Of a DNA stretch of 29,852 nucleotides, positions 3,030 to 29,852 are shown piece after piece; the first letter of the stretch is position 1; each line of letters begins with the position of its first letter. Both the position numbers and the translations under genes were made by a program. The stretch comes from a virus. Taxonomy: Duplodnaviria; Caudoviricetes. A model generated the notes under the pieces. It made no database searches and had not been told where the DNA came from. It worked only from the letters and a program-made list of their open reading frames with translations. The stretch is from the IMG/VR virus record IMGVR_UViG_3300036783_000352, positions 1 through 29,852 of that record; one strand, written 5' to 3'.

Positions 3030-3362
3030 ATGGATGCTTTAGTTAAAATGATGGATGCAAGTAATTTAAGTGAAACGATTAAAATGTGGAGGCATATCGA
3101 AAAAACTAACGGTGTTCATGTTTTTAATGTGGATGTAAATATTATTATCCGAACGTTGTTAAAATCATATCTGATGGCCCCTGAAATGGGATATTTATTT
3201 TATCTGGCCTCAAATGTCCCTTCCCGCCCTGCAACGCATGAGTCCATATCTCTTTCTGTTAAAGATATAAAGAAAATCATTAAATACATATGCCGCGAGC
3301 AAAGACGTGAACTGAGGGAGCTTAGGATTTCAGGGTTATTTGATAACGGCTTGCCGTTTTGA
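3030..3362 (+). CDS. Hypothetical AT-rich protein, 110 aa
   Basis: GGAG RBS; stop abuts the next gene; no family recognised. Confidence 0.7.
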   Translation: MDALVKMMDASNLSETIKMWRHIEKTNGVHVFNVDVNIIIRTLLKSYLMAPEMGYLFYLASNVPSRPATHESISLSVKDIKKIIKYICREQRRELRELRISGLFDNGLPF

Positions 3363-3373
3363 AGGTGGCGAAA

Positions 3374-3601
3374 ATGAAATTTAACGAAGAAAAAAAGATT
3401 TCGGAATTTAATACCCTATTGGATATGGCCCGCCGTGAAGGGGTCAGGGATACTGCCGTACAAATCTCATCTCATCTTGATGGGCTAATTTGCCACGTTG
3501 TGCGCAGTGAGTTATCGGCTGTTGAGATTGTAGAGCTGCTGCAAGTGGAATCCCAGAAACTGCACAATGCGGGTCTGGGTATTGGGGGTGCGTCATGTTA
3601 A
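3374..3601 (+). CDS. P2 Orf80-like (DUF2732) protein
   Basis: LLDMARREG...LDGLICHV...ELSAVEIVELLQVES pattern; position after B; start may be 3359. Confidence 0.75.
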   Translation: MKFNEEKKISEFNTLLDMARREGVRDTAVQISSHLDGLICHVVRSELSAVEIVELLQVESQKLHNAGLGIGGASC

Positions 3602-3897
3602 CCGATTCGCCTCGCGTCATTATCAAAAAATGTTTCTCAATCACCAGAGGTTTCGACGGCGATTATGTGCTGGCTGATGTGCGTCAGGATAAAGAATTGG
3701 GTGAGATTTGTTATTTGACTCGGGCTATATATCAGAACCCGTTAACGCTTATTTCTGATGTGACGACGCTATTAATTAAACGTGCCGTTTTTTTCAAAAC
3801 CGTTACTAATCAGGATGAATTGCTTAAAGAAATGGCTTCGGTCGCGCTGACCTGTCGGGATGCTATCAATAGTCTTGAAAACCCTAAGGGGAAATAA
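3595..3897 (+). CDS. Hypothetical early protein, P2 Orf81-like by position
   Basis: 100 aa, overlaps both neighbours. Confidence 0.7.
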   Translation: MLTDSPRVIIKKCFSITRGFDGDYVLADVRQDKELGEICYLTRAIYQNPLTLISDVTTLLIKRAVFFKTVTNQDELLKEMASVALTCRDAINSLENPKGK

Positions 3898-4172
3898 TGT
3901 CTGTCAATATCGCTATTGGTGATAAATGGGTCATAACCAGCGACCCATTCCAGTTTATTTTAAATGAAAAGAAAATTGCTCAGTCTGGTAAGAATGCGGG
4001 CAAAGAGTGGCTGAATGCTGTCGGCTATTACCCGAAAATTAACCAGCTTGTGAGTGGTCTGATCCATCGCGAACTCCAGCAATCGGCGGCAACGTCCTTT
4101 GCTGAAATGGCGGCGGAAATTGACCGCATCGGCAAGGCTTGCGAGCAGGCTTTTTTTGCTCATGCTGGCTAA
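3897..4172 (+). CDS. P2 Orf83-like (DUF5405) protein
   Basis: IGDKWVITSDPFQFILNEKK...GYYPKINQLVSGL; immediately upstream of A. Confidence 0.8.
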   Translation: MSVNIAIGDKWVITSDPFQFILNEKKIAQSGKNAGKEWLNAVGYYPKINQLVSGLIHRELQQSAATSFAEMAAEIDRIGKACEQAFFAHAG

Positions 4173-6471
4173 CGTTAAGGGGCGCAGAGCCCCGGCTCCA
4201 TATCTGAAAAATACCAGCGCAGTAATGGCTGGTATTTACTTATCCGCAGCACCTCGCGATACACCCGTTTACGATCCGAATGACAGACCTCTTACGCGTG
4301 ACGAATACCGTCAGGCGCAAGACGTTTTCTCGCTGATTAATTCCCTGCCTCATAACCTGGCAACGCACTTTACTAACCGCTGGCTGACGAAGAAAAAAGA
4401 ACTCGGCCAGGTTGGCGGCCTGCGTTTCCTGACCCGGACGTTTAAAGACCGAACATGGCCGCGCCTTGAAAAGGTGAACGCCCGCCACGGTATGAACATT
4501 AACGCCTCTGTGTGTTTTCTGTCTGAAAGTGAGGAATATTCCCGCCTGCCGATGCTGAAAAGTAAGGAGCTGGAAAAGCTGGCCGGTCGTATCGCTGCGG
4601 CGCTTTTTTCTGCTTACGAGGAGCTGGCCGACGCCTTTGCCGCTGAGCATGAAAGCGAGGGGGATAAAAATGAGGTGTTATTCACGGCCAGCGCCCAATC
4701 GTATCTTTACGGCAAGGTGGCCGGGGCGGCTCGCGCTCTAAACGTCACTCCGTTGCACTGGGAAAAATACCGTAAGGGTAAGCTGACGATTGCTAATGCG
4801 TATTCGGCCATAGCCCGGCTTATCAGTGATGACTGGTGGCTCCGCCAGCTCAAGGCGCAGCGTACCCGCTGGAATGAAGCGCTGTTGATTGCTGCTGGCC
4901 TGGTAAATAAAACCTACTCCCCTTACGCCAGTAAACAGGCCGTGCGGGAAGTGCAGGCGCGCCGCCTGGCTAATCTGGAATACCTGAAACAATGCGAGCT
5001 GGAGAACGTCAATACAGGCGAGCGAATCGACCTGATTGATAAAGTGCTTAAGAGTATTTCTAACCCTGAAATACGCCGCATGGAGCTGATGAATACTATT
5101 GCTGGCATTGAGCGTTACGCGGGCAGCGTGGGCCACATCGGCATGTTTATCACCCTCACCACGCCATCAAAATATCACCCGACGCGCATCGTGGGGAAAG
5201 ATAAGACCGTTCAACTCAATCATAAGTGGAATGACGAGGCGTGCAGCCCCAAAGACGGCCAGCGTTATCTCTGCAACATATTCAGCAAAATGCGCACCGC
5301 GTTTAAAGATAACGACCTGCAAGTTTACGGCCTGCGCGTCGTTGAGCCTCACCATGATGGAACGCCGCACTGGCACATGATGCTGTTTTGCGAACGCAGC
5401 CAGCGAAAAGAGATTGTCGAGATAATGCGCCGCTACGCCATGAAAGAAGATGGTAACGAGCGAGGCGCGGCTAAAAATCGCTTTGACTGCAAGCATTTAA
5501 TCAAGGGTAAGGCTGCGGGTTATGTCGCGAAATATATCGCAAAAAATATCGACGGTTACGCGCTGGCCGGTGAAGTCGACCACGACACCGGCAGACCATT
5601 AACGGAAACCGCCGCAGCCGTTAACGCCTGGGCGTCTACGTGGCGTATTCCTCAGTTTAAAACGATTGGTGTGCCGACAATGGGCGCTTACCGTGAGCTG
5701 CGTAAGTTGCCGCGTGGTGTCAGCGTTGCCAGTGAATTTGACGAGCGGGTCGAAGCTGCCCGCGCTGCGGCTGATTACGGTGATTTTGATTTGTATATCG
5801 CTGCGCAGGGCGGGGCGAATGTTCCCCGCGATTCGCAGACCGTCAGGGTTGCCCGCAAAGTTCTGGAAGAGCGAAACGACTACGACGAGGAAGTTAAAAA
5901 AGTTGTTGGCGTTTTCGCCCCGCACCTCGGCGCGGATCGTGTCCACGTCACCCGCACCGAAGAGTGGCGCATTGTCGCTAAGGCCGTTGACGTTGACCTT
6001 AATCTTTTGACTTTAAAGGGCGGTTCATCCGCCCCTCGGAGTCCTGTCAATAACTGTGGGTCAGGTGGTTTTAACACCAGCGCAGATATGACACCTACAC
6101 CGTCTGAGCAAGCCGCAGCGGTGCTAAATCTTCTCGATAGCGGGGATGTGAGCTGGAGCGACGCAGACGTTAAGGCGGTGCTCAGGGGGGCTTTACGCGA
6201 ACAGTCACCGAGGGCGAAGTCGTCGCAGCAAAGCCATAACCCGACTAAGGCCAGCAAACACGCACCGTCAGCACGTTTAACCCGCCAGCAGCGCGACCGC
6301 ATTCCTCGCATTCGCTTTGAGCTTTCGCAGCAGGGCATAACCCCGCAGCGCTGGGAGCTTGAGGCGCTGGCGCGTGGGGCAACGGTTAGCTATGCAGGCA
6401 AAAAATTCTCTTATCCGGTCGCTGATGAGTGGCCGGGATTTTCTGGAAATGAGGAAGTGAAACTATGTTAA
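4162..6471 (+). CDS. A: Rolling-circle replication initiator gpA (HUH endonuclease)
   Basis: FITLTTPS, EPHHDGTPHWH (HUH), GYVAKYIAKNIDG (two Tyr); probable start ATG 4162. Confidence 0.96.
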   Translation: MLANVKGRRAPAPYLKNTSAVMAGIYLSAAPRDTPVYDPNDRPLTRDEYRQAQDVFSLINSLPHNLATHFTNRWLTKKKELGQVGGLRFLTRTFKDRTWPRLEKVNARHGMNINASVCFLSESEEYSRLPMLKSKELEKLAGRIAAALFSAYEELADAFAAEHESEGDKNEVLFTASAQSYLYGKVAGAARALNVTPLHWEKYRKGKLTIANAYSAIARLISDDWWLRQLKAQRTRWNEALLIAAGLVNKTYSPYASKQAVREVQARRLANLEYLKQCELENVNTGERIDLIDKVLKSISNPEIRRMELMNTIAGIERYAGSVGHIGMFITLTTPSKYHPTRIVGKDKTVQLNHKWNDEACSPKDGQRYLCNIFSKMRTAFKDNDLQVYGLRVVEPHHDGTPHWHMMLFCERSQRKEIVEIMRRYAMKEDGNERGAAKNRFDCKHLIKGKAAGYVAKYIAKNIDGYALAGEVDHDTGRPLTETAAAVNAWASTWRIPQFKTIGVPTMGAYRELRKLPRGVSVASEFDERVEAARAAADYGDFDLYIAAQGGANVPRDSQTVRVARKVLEERNDYDEEVKKVVGVFAPHLGADRVHVTRTEEWRIVAKAVDVDLNLLTLKGGSSAPRSPVNNCGSGGFNTSADMTPTPSEQAAAVLNLLDSGDVSWSDADVKAVLRGALREQSPRAKSSQQSHNPTKASKHAPSARLTRQQRDRIPRIRFELSQQGITPQRWELEALARGATVSYAGKKFSYPVADEWPGFSGNEEVKLC
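6031..6059 (+). other. Replication origin (gpA nick site) inside A
   Basis: GCCCCTCGGAGTCCTGTCAATAACTGTGG, near-identical to the P2 ori. Confidence 0.85.
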
Positions 6472-6749
6472 AAGCAAATATAAGCAATAACATCGAAGCG
6501 CGAAAGAATGTAGTGAATTTGTTAAGCGCTGGCGCAATGTTCCGTATGCATGCCCGTCAACTTACGTTATCCCGCAATGAAATTGACACTGATTCAATGC
6601 GGGAAAGCCTGGACGATATCTTTGATGGTTCGGGTATCCCATCGCAGTATGTCGAGCTGTTCAAGATGGTATGTGACCTTGAGTTTGTTGAGGCTGCCGG
6701 TTCGGCGATGGTCGATTGTTACTATGTTCGGGAGGCCCGCAATGACTAG
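6465..6749 (+). CDS. Hypothetical protein, 94 aa
   Basis: GAGG upstream; overlaps the A stop and the next start. Confidence 0.7.
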   Translation: MLKANISNNIEARKNVVNLLSAGAMFRMHARQLTLSRNEIDTDSMRESLDDIFDGSGIPSQYVELFKMVCDLEFVEAAGSAMVDCYYVREARND

Positions 6750-7086: not shown

Positions 7087-7322
7087 GCCCGATTCCGCCC
7101 AGACATTCGATCCAAAGCCTCAAGCTGATGGGTATCGTTAGCCGCTTGCAGCAGATTATGGTTAACGAAAATATCACCCCGGCGGAGCTGGTCGGGTGCG
7201 CCGAAGTCGTCAGAGATAACGCCGTTAAATATTATGAGATTAGTCACCCTGAGCCGGTGACATTTACACCGGCAAAGGGGCCGGAAATCCCACGGTATGC
7301 TCCGCCTCCGCGCTACCGATAA
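7065..7322 (+). CDS. Hypothetical protein of a type recalled downstream of A in P2-like phages, 85 aa
   Basis: AAGGGGG RBS; IVSRLQQIMVNENITPAELVGCAEVVRDN; followed by a terminator. Confidence 0.75.
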   Translation: MHQLPKMSPIPPRHSIQSLKLMGIVSRLQQIMVNENITPAELVGCAEVVRDNAVKYYEISHPEPVTFTPAKGPEIPRYAPPPRYR

Positions 7323-7331
7323 ATCACACTG

Positions 7332-7360
7332 AAACCGGCAATAAATTTGCCGGTTTTTTT
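7332..7360 (+). terminator. Intrinsic terminator of the early operon
   Basis: AAACCGGCAA-TAAAT-TTGCCGGTTT followed by a T run. Confidence 0.88.
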
Positions 7361-7518
7361 ATGCGTTTTCTGCAAAAATCCCCGTAATTAGCGTTGCATG
7401 CGCCAGGCGCATGCTTTTGCATCCATTCAGTAATTATTTTTAACCCTACAAGCGCCAGCCCTGGCGCGGCTCCGGGCGGCTCATGCACCTGCATTAAAAC
7501 CGACCCATAAAGCGGGCA

Positions 7519-7537
7519 GGCGTGGCGGGGATAGCAT
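7519..7537 (+). other. cos site (19-nt cohesive end)
   Basis: GGCGTGGCGGGGATAGCAT in AAGCGGGCA...TGCGCGC context, matching P2/186 cos; lies between early genes and portal. Confidence 0.92.
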
Positions 7538-7681
7538 TGCGCGCTGAGGCGCTTTTTATTTTATTTATTTAGCGTCTGAGTGCGTCATGGTGGCTGTGGC
7601 GTTGTTGTGGTAATACCAAGCGCGGGTTGTGCGCGTGCGCGGCGTGTGGCGCGTCTGGTGGCGTGTGCGAAAGGGTGAGAG

Positions 7682-7702
7682 AGCGCCATTTTTAGTGGCG
7701 CT
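7682..7702. terminator. Hairpin downstream of the leftward packaging operon, possible terminator
   Basis: AGCGCCA-TTTTTAG-TGGCGCT; weak pyrimidine tail on the minus strand. Confidence 0.45.
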
Positions 7703-7728
7703 TTATTGGGTGCAGAGTTAGCTGGCTT

Positions 7729-8100
7729 TTAGCAGTCGGTGAGTAAATGGTGGTGGCCGATAGGTAAGCGATAATTTTCACTCTTAACACAACCGGGGCA
7801 AGGGGTGCCGGTATTTTTGTTAACCCTGATAGCCTTATCATCCCATAACTCAATCATTGAGCTGTCCTTAACGTTGGTTACGCTAAGTTGCGGTAAGTTG
7901 TTATCTTTTAGCCACTGGCTAACAGCGCGCTTGCCTGCAAGGGTCTCGGCGCGGGCAGTAAAAATACGCACCTCCTGATTGACCTGATGCCAGTGCCTTA
8001 CTCGTTTTGCCATGTCAAACACCGGCTTTCCTATCGTCGAACCTTGCCCTGGCTGGTAACGGGCCAGAGTCCCGTCTAAGTCAACACCAATCCAACCCAT
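7729..8100 (-). CDS. Small capless HAD-superfamily phosphatase-like protein, 123 aa
   Basis: Motif I IGVDLDGTLA, motif II IFTAR, Lys (NVK), motif IV LWDDKA; GGAG RBS in the end of Q. Confidence 0.85.
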   Translation of the reverse strand: MGWIGVDLDGTLARYQPGQGSTIGKPVFDMAKRVRHWHQVNQEVRIFTARAETLAGKRAVSQWLKDNNLPQLSVTNVKDSSMIELWDDKAIRVNKNTGTPCPGCVKSENYRLPIGHHHLLTDC

Positions 8101-8103
8101 TGT

Positions 8104-9135
8104 TTACTCCTTCCGCGATTCAAGTTCGTAGGGTTTAAACCTGATAACTTCCATTCCGATCCAGTCGTTAAGCTCTTTCATTCGCTCCTGCAATGGCGTC
8201 AGCTCGTTACGCACAAAGACCTGTGCGGCTTTCACCACGTCACCAAATCCGCCGGTGTTGTTCGGCATTACGCCCATCATCTGCGGCGGTACGCGGTGCG
8301 CGCTCATTAAGTCCTCGGCGCTCGCTTTCTTGATGTTAAAGAAATCGTCTTTGGTAGCTACCTCGCTGAGCGGCAAAATCTTGATACCGTCGGGCTTGCC
8401 GTTCGGGGCATAGTAAAACAGATTCTTAAAGTTCCCCAGACCCTTTGAGCTGCGCATGGCCTTGCGTAGCTCGTCGACGTCGGTGCCGCTTTGTGCGGAG
8501 TCAGTGACATACATGATGTAACCTGCGTGTGCGCCGTTCTGGTAATACTTGCGGCGGAACAGCGTCGCGGATTCATTCAGCCAGGCTGAATTGAGCGCCG
8601 CCAGGTATTCCGGCAGACCGTAAATCTCCTGATTGATATCAGGCTCCAGCAGATGAAACACCGAGCCCGGCGCAAATTCATGCGGGCTGGTAAACGACTG
8701 CACAAACCAGTAAACCCCCTGGGCTACACCTTTTCGCGTGTACTTGGCCGGTGACGTCTCCAGCTTTAAGAGCCGGTTGGTCATGCTCAGACGCTTCTCA
8801 ATAAACGCGTTGCCAAACACCAGGAAATCCAGCGCGAAGCGGCTGAAATCCTGCTGCGAAAGCAACGGGTGCGGGATAAACGTCGAGGCGAGAATATTGC
8901 GCTTAACGTAAATCGGTGAGCTGTGATGAACGGCGGCGCGCAGCGTTTTCGCCAGGCCCGTAAAGCTGACCGGCGGCTCGTACCAGTCACCGTTAGCGAC
9001 GCATTCCGCATAATCCAGGATGTCGCGCCGATCCAGTACGGCTGACGGCTCGCCAAAGGTGAACGCCTCCATTTTTTGGGATGGGGCCGGGGGCGCTTCC
9101 TGCGCCGGGGTGTTGTGCTTTTTGCGCTTGCTCAT
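8104..9135 (-). CDS. Q: Portal protein
   Basis: 343 aa; EAFTFGEP, HHSSPIYVKRN, YYQNGAHAG, AHRVPPQMMG. Confidence 0.97.
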   Translation of the reverse strand: MSKRKKHNTPAQEAPPAPSQKMEAFTFGEPSAVLDRRDILDYAECVANGDWYEPPVSFTGLAKTLRAAVHHSSPIYVKRNILASTFIPHPLLSQQDFSRFALDFLVFGNAFIEKRLSMTNRLLKLETSPAKYTRKGVAQGVYWFVQSFTSPHEFAPGSVFHLLEPDINQEIYGLPEYLAALNSAWLNESATLFRRKYYQNGAHAGYIMYVTDSAQSGTDVDELRKAMRSSKGLGNFKNLFYYAPNGKPDGIKILPLSEVATKDDFFNIKKASAEDLMSAHRVPPQMMGVMPNNTGGFGDVVKAAQVFVRNELTPLQERMKELNDWIGMEVIRFKPYELESRKE

Positions 9136-9809
9136 TTCGCCGCCTTATTTTTTTCCTGCGGCCAGACAGCCGAAAACAGCATGTCAAAATCCTCTGCCGG
9201 ATACTGCGATTTAAGTGCGGGCAGATTCAGAATTGTGCTCTCCTGGGCGTGTGCGTCCTGGGCGGAGAGTCGCTGCTGGTTCTCCGGTTTTTCTGTCGCC
9301 CAAAGCCTGTAGGCCTCGTTACTTGGTGAGGGTGTTGTATAGGCGGTAAAGCGATATTTTGCTTGTGCTGCTAATCCCTTAGCCACCTTGAATAAATTGG
9401 CCGGTTTTTCCGCCCAGGCGTATTCACTGACATACACGTTTCCATGCTTCGCCGCAAAATGGTCGTACTCGCCCATAAAGCCAATTTCAGCACCGTTCGC
9501 CAGCTGGATAGAAGAGTTATCCGGGGGGATTTCTACGCCCGCAAGTGCGGCAAAGTGAACAATTCGTTGCCGGTTCTGCGCTACTGCGTGGTCTGCGGCG
9601 GGTGCCAGAAAATATTGATTGCGGCCCGTCTCGATGGCGTCAATCAATGCCTCAAGCGAGAAATACCAGTCGGCCCCGCACTGCCGGGTTTTAGTGATGT
9701 GGCGGGTGCGGCTCTGTGAAATAAACCAGCGGCGCTGGTACTCAAAGCCGGTGCGGGAAAGCAGGTTTTTTAACGTGGCGGCTTGCAGGCCGGTAAATTC
9801 ATAGCGCAT
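9132..9809 (-). CDS. Terminase ATPase-domain paralog lacking the nuclease domain, 225 aa
   Basis: Collinear with gpP of this window: FEYQ, KTRQCGAD, TGRNQYFL, NGAEIGFMG, VYVSE, YTTPS, AEDF; coupled to P (TAATG) and Q (ATGA). Confidence 0.85.
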   Translation of the reverse strand: MRYEFTGLQAATLKNLLSRTGFEYQRRWFISQSRTRHITKTRQCGADWYFSLEALIDAIETGRNQYFLAPAADHAVAQNRQRIVHFAALAGVEIPPDNSSIQLANGAEIGFMGEYDHFAAKHGNVYVSEYAWAEKPANLFKVAKGLAAQAKYRFTAYTTPSPSNEAYRLWATEKPENQQRLSAQDAHAQESTILNLPALKSQYPAEDFDMLFSAVWPQEKNKAAK

Positions 9810-11581
9810 TAGTTGAACTCCAGAATAGATACAGGGGCGGTGCCACTACCTGCGGTCAGCGGCTCATTTAAAAGGGCGTGCATGGTTGCCCATGCCACGT
9901 CTGCGTGGCTGGCTTCCTCGCTGCGGCTGGCGTCGTAAGTGGCGCTGCGGCCGCTGCTGGTCATGGTTTTGCGGATTGACATAAACGAGGCGGTGATGTC
10001 GGTGTAGCTGACGTCATACTCCAGGCAACCGCGGGCGATGGTGTCTTTGGCTTTCAGCACCATGGCGGTTTTCACCTCCGGGCTGTAGCGGATTTCACGC
10101 GCTGCGGGGTAGAAACCACGGACAAGCTGGTAAACCCCCTGGCCGATGCCGGTTGCATCGATGCCGATATACTCGACGTGGTATTTTTCGGTCAGCTTTC
10201 TGATGGACTCCGCCTGCGTGGCAAAATCCATCCCCTTCCACTGGTGGCGCTCCAGAATGCGGAACTTGCCCCCGGCGACGACCGGCGGGGCCAGCACCAC
10301 GCATCCGGCGCTGTCGCCGGTGTGCGACGGGTCGTAACCAATCCATACCGGACGATAGCCAAACGGGCGCGTCGCGAACGGTTGCCAGTCGTCAGCCCAG
10401 GCTTCCATGCTGTCGACCATACAGCGTTGCAGCTCCTCAAACGGGAATACGGACGCCTTATCGTCGACAAACTCGCACATGAAGAGATTGCGGAAATCCT
10501 CGGCGCTGTTTTCGCGCTTAAGCGTGTCCAGATTGAAAAGGTCGCAGCCGCCGGCGAGCGCGTCCTCAATCGTCACAATCTGCCGCCACTGACCATCCGC
10601 GCAGGCCATGCCGTTTTTTAGCGCAGCATGGCTGACGTCCAGGTCGACACGCTCGCTTTTATCTGCCCGGCCTTTGTTGAACAGCTCACCCGACCAGAAC
10701 GGGTAAGCCCCGTGCGCCAGTGTCGACGGGGTGGAAAAGTAGGTCGAGCGCAGGTGTTGCTGTGAGGCCATGCCGGAGGCGACCTTTCGCAGCTTCTGAA
10801 AGTTGGGTATCCAGAAAATTTCGTCGACCAGCAGGTCGCCGTTATGGCTCTGCGCTGTGTTGGAATTTGTGCCGAGAAAAATCAGCTTTGCGCCGTTGTT
10901 GCCGAGTACGATCGGGTCGCCGGTCAGGTCAACATCGACCAGTCGCGCAAACTGAATGATGTACTCGCGGAATACGTAGGCCTGCGTCTTGCTGGCCGAG
11001 AGGAAAATCTGGTTATGGCCGGTTTTCAGGGCGCGCAGCAGCGACTCGCGGGAGAAATAAAACGTCGCGCCAATCTGGCGGGATTTAAGAATGTTACGGA
11101 TACGGTGCGCCAGCCCGGCCCTGTGCCAGCCGAGCTGATACTCGAAGGATTCCGCAAAGAAAATCTCCTCGAGCTTTTCGATAGCCTCCTCGCTGAAATA
11201 GTTCTTTTTCGGCTTCTTGCGCTCCCCTTTGTTCCTGTTTGCCACGTTCGGATTCAGGTCGACCTCGTTACCCGTCTGGCCGTAGCGATTCACCCTGGCT
11301 AAACGCTCCATTTGTCGTGACAAAAAGTCAGCGACTTTGAAGTCGTGCGCGGTCAGGTCGGGCTTTGCATAGAGCTGAATTAATCGCGCCTCCAGCGTGT
11401 TTTCAACCCGGCTTATCGGGGCGGTTTCCTCCCACTGGTCGCGCTGTTTCCAGCTCTGCACCGTGGGGCGTTTGGTCTTGAGCATTTCCGCGATTTGCGG
11501 CACGGAAAAGCCCTGCCAGTAGAGCAGGGCGGCCTGCCGTCGTGGGTCGTTAAGAATGGAGGTGTCAGTGGTGATGGTCAT
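9809..11581 (-). CDS. P: Terminase large (ATPase/nuclease) subunit
   Basis: 590 aa; LKSRQIGAT, LLVDE, WIGYDPS, HADVAWA. Confidence 0.97.
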   Translation of the reverse strand: MTITTDTSILNDPRRQAALLYWQGFSVPQIAEMLKTKRPTVQSWKQRDQWEETAPISRVENTLEARLIQLYAKPDLTAHDFKVADFLSRQMERLARVNRYGQTGNEVDLNPNVANRNKGERKKPKKNYFSEEAIEKLEEIFFAESFEYQLGWHRAGLAHRIRNILKSRQIGATFYFSRESLLRALKTGHNQIFLSASKTQAYVFREYIIQFARLVDVDLTGDPIVLGNNGAKLIFLGTNSNTAQSHNGDLLVDEIFWIPNFQKLRKVASGMASQQHLRSTYFSTPSTLAHGAYPFWSGELFNKGRADKSERVDLDVSHAALKNGMACADGQWRQIVTIEDALAGGCDLFNLDTLKRENSAEDFRNLFMCEFVDDKASVFPFEELQRCMVDSMEAWADDWQPFATRPFGYRPVWIGYDPSHTGDSAGCVVLAPPVVAGGKFRILERHQWKGMDFATQAESIRKLTEKYHVEYIGIDATGIGQGVYQLVRGFYPAAREIRYSPEVKTAMVLKAKDTIARGCLEYDVSYTDITASFMSIRKTMTSSGRSATYDASRSEEASHADVAWATMHALLNEPLTAGSGTAPVSILEFN

Positions 11582-11648
11582 GAATGCCTCGCCGTTAATA
11601 AAGTAAAGGCAAGGCTAAAGAAATGACGGACTGCGCGCCGTAAGGTGC

Positions 11649-11670
11649 TGTTGTGTCAGGGGTTGCACTT
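11649..11670. promoter_or_regulatory. Ogr-dependent late promoter element between divergent P and O
   Basis: TGTTGTGTCA, shared as TGTTGTRYYA with the regions upstream of V (17489) and FI (21482). Confidence 0.55.
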
Positions 11671-11741
11671 CTGTAACGGGTGGTCGGGGTGGGGCGAGTC
11701 GGGAAAACTAGGCGTCTCAAACCCAACCAGGACAACCGAGA

Positions 11742-12593
11742 ATGGCAAAGACAAAGAAGATTTCGAAATGGTTTCGCATTGGCGTCGAGGGTGACACCTG
11801 CGATGGCCGCATTATCAGCGGCGCTGATATTCAGGAAATGGCTGACACCTACGACACCCGCGTTTACGGGGCGCGCATCAATCTGGAGCATATCAAGGGC
11901 CTGATGCCTGACAGTCCTTTCTGCCGCTATGGTGATGTGGCCGAGGTGAAAGCCGAGAAGATTTCCGACGACTCCGCGCTGAACGGCAAGCTTGCTTTAT
12001 TCGCCCGTATCGCCCCGCTGGATAACCTGGTCGAGATGGTCGGCAAGGGCCAGAAAGTTTATACCTCTATGGAAATTCGCCCGAATTTCTCTAACTCCGG
12101 GAAGTGCTATCTGGTTGGTCTGGCCGTTACCGACGACCCGGCAAGCCTCGGCACGGAATACCTTGAGTTTTGTTCCCGCGCCAGAACTAACCCGCTCGCC
12201 GGTCGCAAAGAGTGCCCGGAAGATTTGTTCTCTGTTGCCACGCTCGCCGTACTGGAATTTGAAGAGCAGGCCGACACCATGTTTACCGCCCTGGCCGACA
12301 AGGTGAAAGGTATTTTCAGCCGCAAGCAGGCCAGCGACGACGCCCGATTTACTGACGTGCATGAGGCGGTAACGGTGGTGACTGAGCAGGTGCAGGCCAA
12401 TCACGAAGCCACCGAGCAGCGCCTTGCGGCGGTGGAATTATCCCTCCAGACCCTGACGGCCAGCGTTGGCGAAAGTCAGACCGAGCTGACCTCGCTCAAG
12501 ACCACGCTGGATAAAACAGAAAACCAGACATATTCGCGCCGCCAGAAGAGCACCGGCGGGGAAGGTGACGAGACGAGTCTGACCGACTGCTGA
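11742..12593 (+). CDS. O: Capsid scaffolding protein/protease
   Basis: WFRIGVEGDTCDGR, RINLEH, YTSMEI, GLAVTDDPASLGTE. Confidence 0.96.
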   Translation: MAKTKKISKWFRIGVEGDTCDGRIISGADIQEMADTYDTRVYGARINLEHIKGLMPDSPFCRYGDVAEVKAEKISDDSALNGKLALFARIAPLDNLVEMVGKGQKVYTSMEIRPNFSNSGKCYLVGLAVTDDPASLGTEYLEFCSRARTNPLAGRKECPEDLFSVATLAVLEFEEQADTMFTALADKVKGIFSRKQASDDARFTDVHEAVTVVTEQVQANHEATEQRLAAVELSLQTLTASVGESQTELTSLKTTLDKTENQTYSRRQKSTGGEGDETSLTDC

Positions 12594-26756: not shown

Positions 26757-27913
26757 TGCTGACGGGAATGACGATCGACGCGGGTGCCAGCATGGCCCCG
26801 GCGTTTATGCTGACGCTGAACAGCCAGGATATTACGCGCAACATCAGCGACCGGCTGATTAGTCTCAGCCTGGCGGATAACCGGGGCTTTGAAGCCGACC
26901 AGCTCGATATTGAGCTCGACGACACCGACGGACTGGTAGAGCTACCGACACGCGGCGCAGTGCTATCGCTTTTCCTCGGCTGGCAGGGGGCGGCGCTCAT
27001 CGGGAAAGGGCAGTTTACGGTTGATGAAATCGAGCACCGGGGCGCGCCGGATACGCTGACCATCCGGGCGCGCAGCGCGGATTTTCGCGGTACGTTAAAT
27101 TCCCGGCGTGAAACTTCATACCACGACACCACGCTCGGCGCGTTGCTGGAAACTATCGCCGGTCGTAACAAGCTGACGGCCAGCGTTGCGCCGCAGTTTG
27201 CCGGGATTCCTGTGCCGCATATTGACCAGTCGCAGGAGTCCGACGCGAAGTTTCTCACCCGACTTGCCGAGCGCAACGGGGCGGAGGTGTCGGTAAAAAT
27301 GGGCAAACTGCTTTTTTTGAAGGCCGGGAACGGCGTCACGGCCAGCGGCAAGCCCATTCCGCAGATGACTATCCAGCGCAGGGACGGCGACCGACATCAG
27401 TTTGCGATTGCCGATCGGGGCGCTTACACCGGCGTTACGGTGAAGTGGCTGCACACTAAAGACCCCAAAGAGCAAAAGCAGAAGGTGAAGCTTAAGCGGA
27501 AACCTAAGCCGCAGCACCTGCGCGCACTCCAGCACCCGAAAGCGCAGCCGGTAAAAGCCCGGCCAGAGACGAAGGAAAAAGAAGCCCGCGAGGGGGAGTA
27601 TATGGTCGGGGAGGACGATAACGTCTTTGCGCTGACGACCATTTACTCAAGCAAGGCGCAGGCCATTCGTGCCGCCCAGGCGAAGTGGGACAAGCTGCAA
27701 CGCGGTGTGGCGGAGTTTTCAATCAGCCTGGCAATGGGACGTGCGGATTTATATCCGGAAATGCCGGTCGCCGTCTCGGGCTTTAAGCGCGTGATAGACG
27801 AGCAGTCATGGACGATTACTAAGGTGTCCCACTCGCTCAGTAATAGCGGCTTCACGACGTCCTTAGAGCTTGAGGTGAGGCTTAATGACGTTGAGTATCA
27901 GGAGAGTGAATAA
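26756..27913 (+). CDS. D: Baseplate hub protein D
   Basis: DNRGFEADQLDIELDD, HIDQSQESD, WDKLQRGVAEFS. Confidence 0.95.
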   Translation: MLTGMTIDAGASMAPAFMLTLNSQDITRNISDRLISLSLADNRGFEADQLDIELDDTDGLVELPTRGAVLSLFLGWQGAALIGKGQFTVDEIEHRGAPDTLTIRARSADFRGTLNSRRETSYHDTTLGALLETIAGRNKLTASVAPQFAGIPVPHIDQSQESDAKFLTRLAERNGAEVSVKMGKLLFLKAGNGVTASGKPIPQMTIQRRDGDRHQFAIADRGAYTGVTVKWLHTKDPKEQKQKVKLKRKPKPQHLRALQHPKAQPVKARPETKEKEAREGEYMVGEDDNVFALTTIYSSKAQAIRAAQAKWDKLQRGVAEFSISLAMGRADLYPEMPVAVSGFKRVIDEQSWTITKVSHSLSNSGFTTSLELEVRLNDVEYQESE

Positions 27914-27999
27914 TGTGCGTAAAAGTTCATAACTCATTGTTAATAAATGATTTAATGCGTAAAATAACAACATCAGACGAAGCCATCCGAGGTGTTGAA

Positions 28000-28221
28000 A
28001 TGTTCCATTGCCCACTATGTCAGACTGCGGCCCATGCCCGCACCAGCCGTTATCATACAACGGTAACAAAAGAGCGTTATCACCAGTGCCAGAACGTGAA
28101 TTGTAGTGCGACCTTTGTCACGCTGGAGACGGTGAAGCATTACATCGTTAAGCCGGGCGAAAGAACGCCCGTTATGCCGCACCCGATACCGGGCGGACAG
28201 CAGCAAATTCACTGGATGTAA
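28000..28221 (+). CDS. ogr: Late transcription activator (Ogr/Delta zinc finger), 73 aa
   Basis: GAGG RBS; MFHCPLCQTAAHARTSR...YHQCQNVNCSATF. Confidence 0.96.
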   Translation: MFHCPLCQTAAHARTSRYHTTVTKERYHQCQNVNCSATFVTLETVKHYIVKPGERTPVMPHPIPGGQQQIHWM

Positions 28222-28490: not shown

Positions 28491-29852
28491 CTAGTTAGCG
28501 TGCGGATTGCGGGTGGTCTGACCGGCTAAATTGCGCATCAGTAGCGCATAATCCAGCGACACATCCTGCGGTACAGGCAACCATACGGTGTGACCGTCGC
28601 CAGGCGCCACTTCAATCGCCTGAGCCTTAGTGTTTTCAAGCACTTCGAGCGTGAAGGTGACGTTGCCCTGCGGGGTCATTAGTTCCAGACTGTCGCCGAG
28701 CAGGAACTTGTTTTTCACCGCGACCGCCGCCAGATCGCCCCGGCGTTCACCGGTAAACTCCCCGACAAACTGCTGGCGTTCTGAGATGGAATGGCCGTAT
28801 TCGTAATTTTGATGGCTGTCGTGCGTATGGCGGCGCAGGAACCCTTCGGTGTAGCCGCGGTGCGCCAGGCCTTCCAGCGTTTGCAGCAGCGTCGGGTCAA
28901 ACGGTTTGCCCGCTGCCGCGTCGTCAATCGCCCGGCGATAAACCTGAGCGGTGCGCGCGCAGTAGTAATAGGACTTGGTGCGGCCTTCGATTTTTAAGGA
29001 GTGAACGCCCATTTTGGTCAGGCGCTCGACGTGCTCAATGGCGCGCAGATCCTTAGAGTTCATGATGTAGGTGCCATGCTCGTCCTCGAACGCCGTCATG
29101 TACTCGCCCGGACGTTTGGCCTCTTCCATCATAAAGACTTTATCGGTTGGCGCCCCTACGCCCAGCGTTGGCTCAATGTTTTGCACGGGGATCGGCTCGT
29201 GGACGTGAACGATATTGCCGACCTCATCCTCTTTGCCTTCTTCAACCTTATATTCCCAGCGGCAGGCGTTGGTGCAGGTGCCCTGATTCGGGTCGCGCTT
29301 GTTGATGTAGCCGGACAGCAGACAGCGGCCGGAGTAAGCCATGCACAGCGCGCCGTGAACGAAGATTTCCAGCTCCATTTCCGGCACCTGCTCGCGAATT
29401 TCAGCGATTTCTTCCAGGGACAGCTCGCGGGAAAGAATGGCGCGGGTCAGCCCCATTTGCTTCCAGAACTTTACGGTGGCCCAGTTCACGGCGTTGGCCT
29501 GCACGGACAGGTGAATGTCCATCTCCGGGAAGGCTTCGCGCACCAGCATGATTAAACCAGGATCGGACATAATCAGCGCGTCCGGGCCCATTTCGACCAC
29601 CGGCTTCAGATCGCGGATAAAGGTTTTCAGCTTGGCATTGTGTGGCGCGATGTTCACCACAACGTAGAATTTTTTCCCCAGCTCGTGGGCTTCGTTGATG
29701 CCGAGCTGAAGGTTCTCGTGGTTGAATTCGTTATTGCGCACGCGCAGGCTGTAGCGCGGCTGGCCCGCATAAACCGCGTCCGCGCCATAGGCAAAGGCGT
29801 AACGCATATTTTTCAGCGTTCCCGCCGGCGATAAAAGTTCTGGTTTAAACAT
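28491..29852 (-). CDS. trhP: Prephenate-dependent tRNA uridine(34) hydroxylase (U32 family), host gene
   Basis: 453 aa; MFKPELLSPAG, HGALCMAYSGRC, CTNACR, SLKIEGR; equals yegQ. Confidence 0.97.
   Translation of the reverse strand: MFKPELLSPAGTLKNMRYAFAYGADAVYAGQPRYSLRVRNNEFNHENLQLGINEAHELGKKFYVVVNIAPHNAKLKTFIRDLKPVVEMGPDALIMSDPGLIMLVREAFPEMDIHLSVQANAVNWATVKFWKQMGLTRAILSRELSLEEIAEIREQVPEMELEIFVHGALCMAYSGRCLLSGYINKRDPNQGTCTNACRWEYKVEEGKEDEVGNIVHVHEPIPVQNIEPTLGVGAPTDKVFMMEEAKRPGEYMTAFEDEHGTYIMNSKDLRAIEHVERLTKMGVHSLKIEGRTKSYYYCARTAQVYRRAIDDAAAGKPFDPTLLQTLEGLAHRGYTEGFLRRHTHDSHQNYEYGHSISERQQFVGEFTGERRGDLAAVAVKNKFLLGDSLELMTPQGNVTFTLEVLENTKAQAIEVAPGDGHTVWLPVPQDVSLDYALLMRNLAGQTTRNPHAN

What the first reader, a model, noticed from the sequence alone, without database searches (positions are those of the whole stretch)
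9132..9809. Degenerate stand-alone terminase ATPase paralog between P and Q: possible decoy or regulator
Seen: collinear with the ATPase region of the adjacent gpP (FEYQ/FEYQ; KSRQIGAT/KTRQCGAD; TGHNQIFL/TGRNQYFL; NGAKLIFLG/NGAEIGFMG; LLVDE/VYVSE; KVASGMA/KVAKGLA; FSTPS/YTTPS; AEDFRNLF/AEDFDMLF). It lacks the N-terminal region and the entire nuclease domain, and the Walker A Thr and Walker B Asp positions are substituted. It is highly diverged yet open and coupled at both ends, arguing for selection rather than decay. Known: Avs1-3 STAND NTPases detect the large terminase, and satellites redirect helper packaging. Inference: a catalytically dead decoy for terminase-sensing immunity, or a dominant modulator of the packaging motor. 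Similar 'terminase-like' ORFs are probably annotated in related prophages, but I know of no described function.
Basis: partly seen in the sequence, partly recalled or inferred. Interest (0 to 1): 0.82.

Follow-up and report, generated by a model that had tools for sequence, protein, structure and literature searches.

The report
Swappable terminase look-alike, phage 186 W-family
This P2-like prophage carries an optional, swappable extra gene that copies only the ATP-binding half of its DNA-packaging motor, a relative of the still unexplained W gene of phage 186, and it likely works as a look-alike that would blunt bacterial immune sensors of that motor.

Summary
The ORF is real: 225 aa, 33% identical to gpP residues 137-375, overlapping P and Q. 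It is not new. It groups with phage 186 W, which GenBank annotates as 'similar to Orf12' in the same slot, and this scan noted the family before on other DNA (e1-371215, e1-396450).

It is accessory: 5 of 78 loci with gpP 82-100% identical carry it. It is under purifying selection (dN/dS about 0.2) and is swapped independently of gpP (99%-identical gpP, 36%-identical copies). The same P-short-Q layout arose again in a distant P2-related lineage (single origin rejected, AU p=0.0001).

'Dead' is unproven. Walker A T>D and Walker B D>S are reciprocal and the rest of the pocket is kept; 186 W keeps both residues. What every short lineage loses is a gpP loop that aligns with a known trans-acting finger, so it is unlikely to be a working motor subunit.

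Best guess (0.4): an ATP-bound decoy against terminase-sensing STAND immunity. Against this, bare terminase ATPase domains activate Avs2 and Upx. Main rival (0.25): a cap on the motor ring. No function was tested.

The parts
9132..9809 (-). W-family stand-alone terminase ATPase+lid paralogue, 225 aa
9809..11581 (-). gpP large terminase (HTH, ATPase, nuclease), 590 aa, motifs intact
8104..9135 (-). gpQ portal, 343 aa; its first ~50 nt appear to travel with the W cassette
9818..9821 (-). GGAG ribosome-binding-like site inside the 3' end of P, 8 nt before the paralogue's ATG (it precedes Q in phages without the gene)
   Evidence: sequence; compared
9143..9147 (-). TAAGG ribosome-binding-like site for Q, supplied by the paralogue's own 3' end
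   Evidence: sequence; similar sites in the other loci printed
9735..9740 (-). Adenine-binding YQ motif (Y24-Q25), kept
   Evidence: Q in 30 of 30 core W rows; role of this Q from established terminase knowledge
9669..9692 (-). Walker A KTRQCGAD (K40-D47): K, R, Q, G kept, T replaced by D
9453..9470 (-). Residues 114-119, where gpP's conserved T-N-x-x-T-A-Q loop is lost; that loop aligns with the P74-26 trans-arginine loop
9414..9434 (-). Walker B YVSEYAW (Y126-W132): D replaced by S, catalytic E kept
9162..9278 (-). Lid-subdomain segment (residues ~178-216), partly conserved
   Evidence: 'lid' label inferred from alignment with P74-26 and

Best explanation
The gene is an optional, selectively kept, freely swapped copy of the terminase ATPase domain in the phage 186 W family, and it likely acts as an ATP-loaded look-alike of gpP that would occupy terminase-sensing bacterial STAND (Avs-type) receptors without fully triggering them during late infection. 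Shown here: the anatomy, family membership, accessory status, purifying selection, exchange independent of gpP, a repeated origin of the layout, and loss of the gpP T-N-x-x-T-A-Q loop, nuclease and HTH. Inferred: co-expression with P and Q from one coupled operon; nucleotide binding, with the T>D / D>S pair rebuilding the Mg site; inability to drive or extend the motor ring. Speculative: that the partner is an immune sensor, and that sensor subunits loaded with the look-alike spoil the four-subunit active complex.
For: Behaves like a conflict gene: 5 of 78 loci with gpP 82-100% identical carry it; at least 7 gains or losses on the gpP tree; identity of the copies follows gpP poorly (Spearman 0.22, against 0.89 for P vs Q; L029/L033 gpP 99% over shared columns, copies 36%); dN/dS 0.20 against 0.04 for gpP. 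The residues kept in the core W rows (Walker A R 27/27, Q 26/27, catalytic E 26/27, adenine Q 27/27) match those that a published Avs2 structure reads in the terminase: R162, Q163, E256 and the bound ATP (section 7 of 10.64898/2026.08.25.746987). The changed loop matches, by my motif alignment, the R245/N247 region contacted by that sensor's C-terminal domain. SeAvs3 binds the nuclease domain extensively, and this protein has none. The layout arose more than once, as a general pressure would predict. Evans et al. suggest that terminase-like non-terminase activators such as T4 vs.8 may be anti-defence proteins (PMC13601566). A P4-encoded TIR-NLR system blocks P2 and four P2-like phages but not W-bearing 186 (PMC9122126 section 11); this is a lead only.
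Against: Isolated terminase ATPase domains activate EcAvs2 more than 1000-fold, activate a second Avs2 and all Upx homologues tested; Walker B mutation mostly does not stop Upx; vs.8 itself triggers EcAvs2. The gene lies downstream of P, so it would be made neither earlier nor in excess. The kept residues are also simply the ATP-binding core. The younger copies do not keep them all (R168>H in L175/L182, Q169>I in L194). 186 W keeps normal Walker residues, so the swap is not needed by the family. The TIR-NLR trigger was not found in what I read, 186 and P2 were propagated on different E. coli strains, and I did not check whether the four other P2-like phages lack W. Part of the low correlation with gpP is saturation of distances near 35-40%.
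Confidence: 0.4

Rival explanations
1. A cap or brake on the phage's own packaging motor. The protein would bind gpP with its ATP-pocket and lid face but, lacking the finger loop, DNA-pore motif and nuclease, could not extend the ring. It would hold gpP inactive or slow packaging, and might incidentally hide gpP's finger face from sensors.
For: Pocket and part of the lid are kept while the opposite face is lost. In P74-26 the trans finger and a lid arginine form the subunit interface (PMC5389665 passages). Dead subunits are tolerated in T4 motors but slow them (PMC8589836 abstract). New copies derive from the phage's own terminase (62-64% identity) and sit in its operon. Recalled, not read: Portelli et al. 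1998 suggested a 186 late gene may modulate DNA packaging.
Against: Copies are swapped between nearly identical gpP proteins. No gpP residue tracks presence strictly (best 12 of 14 carriers vs 29-35% of non-carriers). Lid residues are only partly kept (gpP R333 in 22% of core W rows). Slowing one's own motor needs a benefit that was not identified. The trans finger lies elsewhere in D6E, so its place in gpP is inferred.
Confidence: 0.25
2. A weapon against rivals: it would poison or bias terminase complexes used by P4-like satellites or by co-infecting P2-like phages.
For: P4 uses the P2 terminase and shares the cos core (PMC9122126 passage). Patchy, diverse, exchangeable alleles fit phage-phage conflict as well as phage-host conflict.
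Against: It lies in the late P-Q operon (P2 annotation; 186), not in a lysogen-expressed position, and has no DNA-recognition domain with which to tell satellite DNA from helper DNA.
Confidence: 0.17
3. An active ATPase with a rewired metal site that assists packaging or head assembly.
For: K, R, Q, G, catalytic E and the T/S-T/S-P-S motif are kept; Walker A D never occurs together with Walker B D (0 of 44 short rows); 186 W has canonical motifs; removing the nuclease raised D6E kcat from 7.8 to 457.7 per min (PMC5727402 abstract passage). Recalled, not read: W was named from an amber mutant.
Against: gpP 96-99.5% identical occurs without the gene, including a 98.6% relative of 186 Orf12. None of 65 full-length terminases has the swap. 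The swap rests on only 2 independent tree contrasts. An amber in W could be lethal through polarity on the coupled portal gene (inference from the overlap).
Confidence: 0.13
4. A functionless duplicate drifting to loss.
For: Most relatives lack it; broken copies exist (L062; shortened CDS in NC_049342), both in records where a neighbouring gene is broken too.
Against: dN/dS below 0.5 in 32 of 32 pairs; 11 invariant columns across 45 proteins as low as 26% identical; start, end and overlaps the same in 66 of 68 loci.
Confidence: 0.03

Closest known systems
Phage 186 W protein (U32222.1 1215-1961, AAC34147.1, 'similar to Orf12') and PSP3 gp2 ('similar to 186 W')
   Same: Same slot between large terminase and portal, same 1-nt and 4-nt overlaps, same ATPase+lid boundaries; 31% identical; one supported clade that excludes all full-length terminases in the trees.
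   Different: 23 residues shorter; Walker A T>D and Walker B D>S, which W lacks but 27 of 30 core family rows show in some form; no closer to W by identity than to gpP (31% vs 33%).
P2-type large terminase gpP, ATPase domain (Pfam PF03237; fold of T4 gp17 and P74-26 TerL)
   Same: Fold, adenine Q, Walker A K/R/Q/G, catalytic E, T-T-P-S motif.
   Different: No HTH, no nuclease; gpP S195-A196-x-x-x-Q200 and T238-N239...Q244 motifs lost; dN/dS about 3-5 times higher.
T4 vs.8 (stand-alone terminase-ATPase-like protein; PMC13601566)
   Same: Stand-alone ATPase-like copy in a phage that has a normal terminase; role unknown; proposed link to immunity.
   Different: Not next to the terminase; Walker motifs reported conserved; triggers EcAvs2; no alignment to this family (an insensitive test: it also failed for P74-26).
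ATPase-dead subunits doped into the T4 gp17 ring (PMC8589836, abstract)
   Same: Model for how a dead or one-faced subunit would slow a motor.
   Different: Engineered full-length mutants, not a natural gene.

Membership tests
Phage 186 W family | Gene between large terminase and portal, overlapping both | tested here: met
Phage 186 W family | Terminase ATPase+lid only, about 220-255 aa, no HTH or nuclease | tested here: met
Phage 186 W family | Common descent with W, apart from full-length gpP | tested here: met
   30-row clade at SH-aLRT 95 and 12-row clade at 99; quick trees with long branches, so attraction between fast rows is not excluded
Phage 186 W family | Canonical Walker T and D as in W itself | tested here: not met
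   D47 and S128 here; W is the minority form, 2 of 30 core rows, so I do not treat this as defining
Functional large terminase (TerL) | C-terminal RNase H-like nuclease | tested here: not met
Functional large terminase (TerL) | Walker A T/S with Walker B D-E | tested here: not met
   65 of 65 full-length rows have T/S + D; this protein has D + S
Functional large terminase (TerL) | ASCE ATPase fold | tested here: met
Functional large terminase (TerL) | ATP hydrolysis and DNA translocation | not testable with these tools
   needs assays
Anti-Avs decoy / anti-defence protein | Binds a terminase sensor without activating it | not testable with these tools
   no complex prediction obtained; needs co-expression and binding assays
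Anti-Avs decoy / anti-defence protein | Accessory, patchy, fast-evolving gene | tested here: met
   not specific to this role
T4 vs.8 family | Sequence or profile similarity to vs.8 | tested here: inconclusive
   hhalign probability 0.2, but the control with P74-26 also failed

The most novel reading that the evidence does not exclude
P2-related phages have repeatedly re-invented, by duplicating the ATPase half of their own terminase into the P-Q junction, a one-faced ATP-binding mimic that neutralises terminase-sensing STAND immunity, either by occupying the sensor or by capping gpP's sensed face. The classical gene W of phage 186 would then be the first natural terminase decoy, and part of why 186 escapes a satellite-borne STAND system that stops P2.
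Probability: 0.3. Interest if true: 0.85.

Novelty: new variant of a known kind. Interest (0 to 1): 0.5.

Why it matters
Terminase is a main trigger of bacterial pattern-recognition immunity, and my paper searches found no natural terminase mimic shown to block it. This family offers a clean test in model phages: 186 has the gene, P2 lacks it, and their terminases are 88% identical. The repeated origin, the cassette-like swapping and the shared loss of one loop say which surfaces matter. If it is instead a motor cap, it would be a natural regulator of a viral packaging ring. The gene itself has been annotated since the 186 sequence, so the value lies in the mechanism, not in the discovery.

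Tried and rejected
Complex prediction of the paralogue with gpP 122-590, ATP and Mg: never run, the queue was full; no verdict on binding.
Expression: no RNA holder listed; says nothing either way.
Walker A/B covariation: Fisher p 6e-9 over 44 short rows falls to 2 independent contrasts, p=1; I do not claim co-evolution.
Fused or full-length forms carrying the swap: a 'longer' search scored 7991 candidates and returned 1 ordinary gpP; weak evidence of absence.
Context of P0059: no locus found, so that possible further origin is unverified, as are P0065, P0093 and the nine 'basal' short rows.
Motif Ia loss as a universal trait: rejected; Q200 is kept in 7 of 9 basal short rows.
PADLOC and NCBIfam: no match. 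Sigma-70 promoter scan of 7300-11800: 0 sites; P2-type late promoters are activator-dependent. Sequence search of solved structures with the gpP profile reached only nuclease and HTH domains clearly.
Literature on 186 W genetics: searches found no accessible text; Portelli et al. 1998 (PMID 9705261) was seen only as a citation. One supplement of PMC13601566 (file 10) could not be searched and bioRxiv supplements are closed; a P2-like terminase could be among those tested under another name.
First idea that the gene is clade-specific and essential: rejected.

Full report
Observation. The window is a P2-like prophage with integrase, replication, head, lysis and tail genes matched by PHROGs. ORF 9132-9809 (-) encodes 225 aa that align with gpP 137-375 at 33% identity, E 3e-28. 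It matches only Pfam Terminase_6N, while gpP also has the HTH and nuclease. The P stop overlaps its ATG by 1 nt and its stop overlaps the Q start by 4 nt. It uses the GGAG at the end of P and supplies a new ribosome-site-like motif for Q. The AlphaFold2 model is confident (pLDDT 92.1) and matches the T4 gp17 and P74-26 ATPase domains best, and also the terminase bound to Avs3 in 8dgc.

It is a known, unexplained gene. A search with a distant homologue found a second terminase-like place in phages 186, PSP3, EtG, SW9, SI22 and Midge. GenBank U32222 annotates orf12 (P), W ('similar to Orf12', 248 aa) and orf2 (portal) in the same order; PSP3 gp2 is 'similar to 186 W'. The window protein is 31% identical to W. 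In a 109-row quick tree it falls with W in a 30-row clade (SH-aLRT 95) that holds none of 65 full-length terminases; a 46-row tree gives a 12-row clade at 99. These are quick trees with long branches. I recall that Portelli et al. 1998 proposed a 186 late gene may modulate packaging and that W was named from an amber mutant; I saw only the citation. This scan reported the family before on other DNA; I had reached the 186 W link, before seeing those notes.

Conserved and selected. Of 73 viral loci found with the family profile, 68 parse as complete P-X-Q with X of 215-260 aa, 66 of them with the same overlaps. Of the other five, three have an intact X with P broken or cut off, one is cut by a contig end and one is frameshifted. 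In 32 non-overlapping pairs (chosen at 60-97% X identity and dS of at least 0.05, which favours higher values for X), dN/dS has median 0.20 for X and 0.04 for gpP; the highest X value is 0.46. In one 36-member clade, 100 of 241 X sites are invariant against 216 of 260 in the gpP ATPase, and variation clusters at residues ~70-105.

Accessory and mobile. Among the best 80 of 595 gpP relatives from a partial scan, 78 were complete and 5 carry the gene. Pairs with and without it have gpP 99.5%, 98.6% (a relative of 186 Orf12) and 96.4% (the window) identical. A FastTree of 80 gpP rows needs at least 7 gains or losses, and no gpP residue tracks presence strictly. In E. coli, 1241 of 5426 genomes match one P-X-Q query and 20 cover at least 80% of it; 21 hold that X and 8 hold the W type. 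Identity of X follows gpP poorly (Spearman 0.22; P vs Q 0.89), partly through saturation; L029 and L033 have gpP 99% identical over shared columns (L029 is cut at its N-terminus) and X 36%. In four with/without pairs the first 100 nt of Q are only 53-75% identical, against about 90% or more along most of the gene, so the unit exchanged looks like X plus the tip of Q, moved by recombination between P and Q (inference).

Repeated origin. Searching with the short protein P0096 gave 80 loci whose gpP is about 41-48% identical to the window's; 10 carry a short ATPase copy between terminase and portal. Nine are 62-64% identical to their own terminase, evenly along the domain, and the three put in the tree are sister to it (97); L194 groups with its own terminase clade (89). 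An AU test rejects one clade for all 20 short rows (p 0.000123); the row set was chosen. Independent duplication or whole-gene conversion from the neighbour would both give this result. Other short rows lack verified context.

What is kept and lost. In 30 core W rows: adenine Q 30, Walker A K 29, R 30, Q 29, G 30, catalytic E 29. Walker A D with non-D Walker B occurs in 27; T with D in 2 (186 W among them); D with D in none; all 65 full-length rows have T/S with D. The swap rests on 2 independent contrasts and cannot be tested statistically. It may keep a hydroxyl-carboxylate pair at the Mg site (inference), so 'dead' is unproven. The more general loss is gpP Q244, present in 97% of 71 full-length rows, 0 of 27 core W rows, 0 of 9 basal rows and none of the younger copies; T238 behaves alike. 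That loop aligns with the P74-26 segment holding R139 (profile probability 96.9), the trans-acting finger (PMC5389665, passages). In D6E the finger lies elsewhere (PMC5727402, passages), so its place in gpP is inferred. Motif S195-A196-Q200 is lost in most core W rows and in the younger copies but Q200 is kept in 7 of 9 basal rows. The younger copies damage Walker A differently (R168>H; Q169>I). The common product is a domain that can probably hold nucleotide but is unlikely to work as a full motor subunit.

Mechanism. A swappable, fast-evolving, repeatedly born accessory gene points to conflict. Avs2 reads the terminase Walker A R and Q, the catalytic E and the bound ATP with its TPR region, and the R245/N247 region with its C-terminal domain (10.64898/2026.08.25.746987, section 7). 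The W clade keeps the first set and changes the second by my alignment. SeAvs3 also binds the nuclease (PMC13601566, parts 1-3 of 7). Activation involves a tetramer, so a co-expressed non-activating ligand could matter even at equal amounts (inference). A P4 TIR-NLR system stops P2 and four P2-like phages but not 186 (PMC9122126, section 11); its trigger was not found in what I read and the host strains differ. Against the decoy: bare ATPase domains activate EcAvs2, the second Avs2 and Upx, and T4 vs.8 triggers EcAvs2. I give the decoy 0.4, a cap on the own motor 0.25 (dead subunits slow T4 motors; PMC8589836, abstract), interference with satellites or rival phages 0.17, an active helper ATPase 0.13 and decay 0.03.

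Other papers seen as passages only, none describing this gene in the passages shown: PMC13100340, PMC13581612, PMC13586616, PMC2771037, PMC3448106, 10.1101/2025.06.06.658234 (67), PMC9958956, PMC11564622. Ten searches of the open library found no functional study of W; subscription papers are outside it.

Verdict. A real, selected, accessory member of the 186 W family, in the common Walker-swapped form; a new variant of a known kind with an untested function. Interest 0.5.

Noticed in passing
window 7729-8100 (-): 123-aa HAD-like ORF starting just after the Q stop, in the A-Q accessory hotspot (phrog_1238, E 1.3e-8); not found in 156 related loci, whose flanks are limited.
   Followed up: partly
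window 28491-29852 (-): Host tRNA hydroxylase gene trhP (NF011996) beside the late-activator-like gene at 27913-28221; the prophage appears inserted next to trhP. The attachment site was not mapped.
   Followed up: no
L175-L183 ~3501-4274 and L194 4904-5665: Younger terminase-ATPase duplicates between terminase and portal in a distant P2-related lineage, with Walker A damaged in other ways.
   Followed up: yes
window 8104-9135, 5' end; L012, L014, L085 vs L122, L119, L174: The first ~50 nt of the portal gene differ sharply between phages with and without the cassette.
   Followed up: partly
window 9132-9809: Third-position GC is lower than in P and Q (0.59 vs 0.74 and 0.71), and likewise in 8 of 8 loci checked.
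   Followed up: partly
window 6465-6749 (+), 3030-3362 (+): Small ORFs in the early region and after gene A with no PHROGs match at E 0.001.
   Followed up: no
L257 2501-4258 (NC_049342): Record with a shortened W-family CDS and a split portal CDS, and a TIR-domain gene in the adjacent hotspot; the breaks may be sequencing errors.
   Followed up: partly
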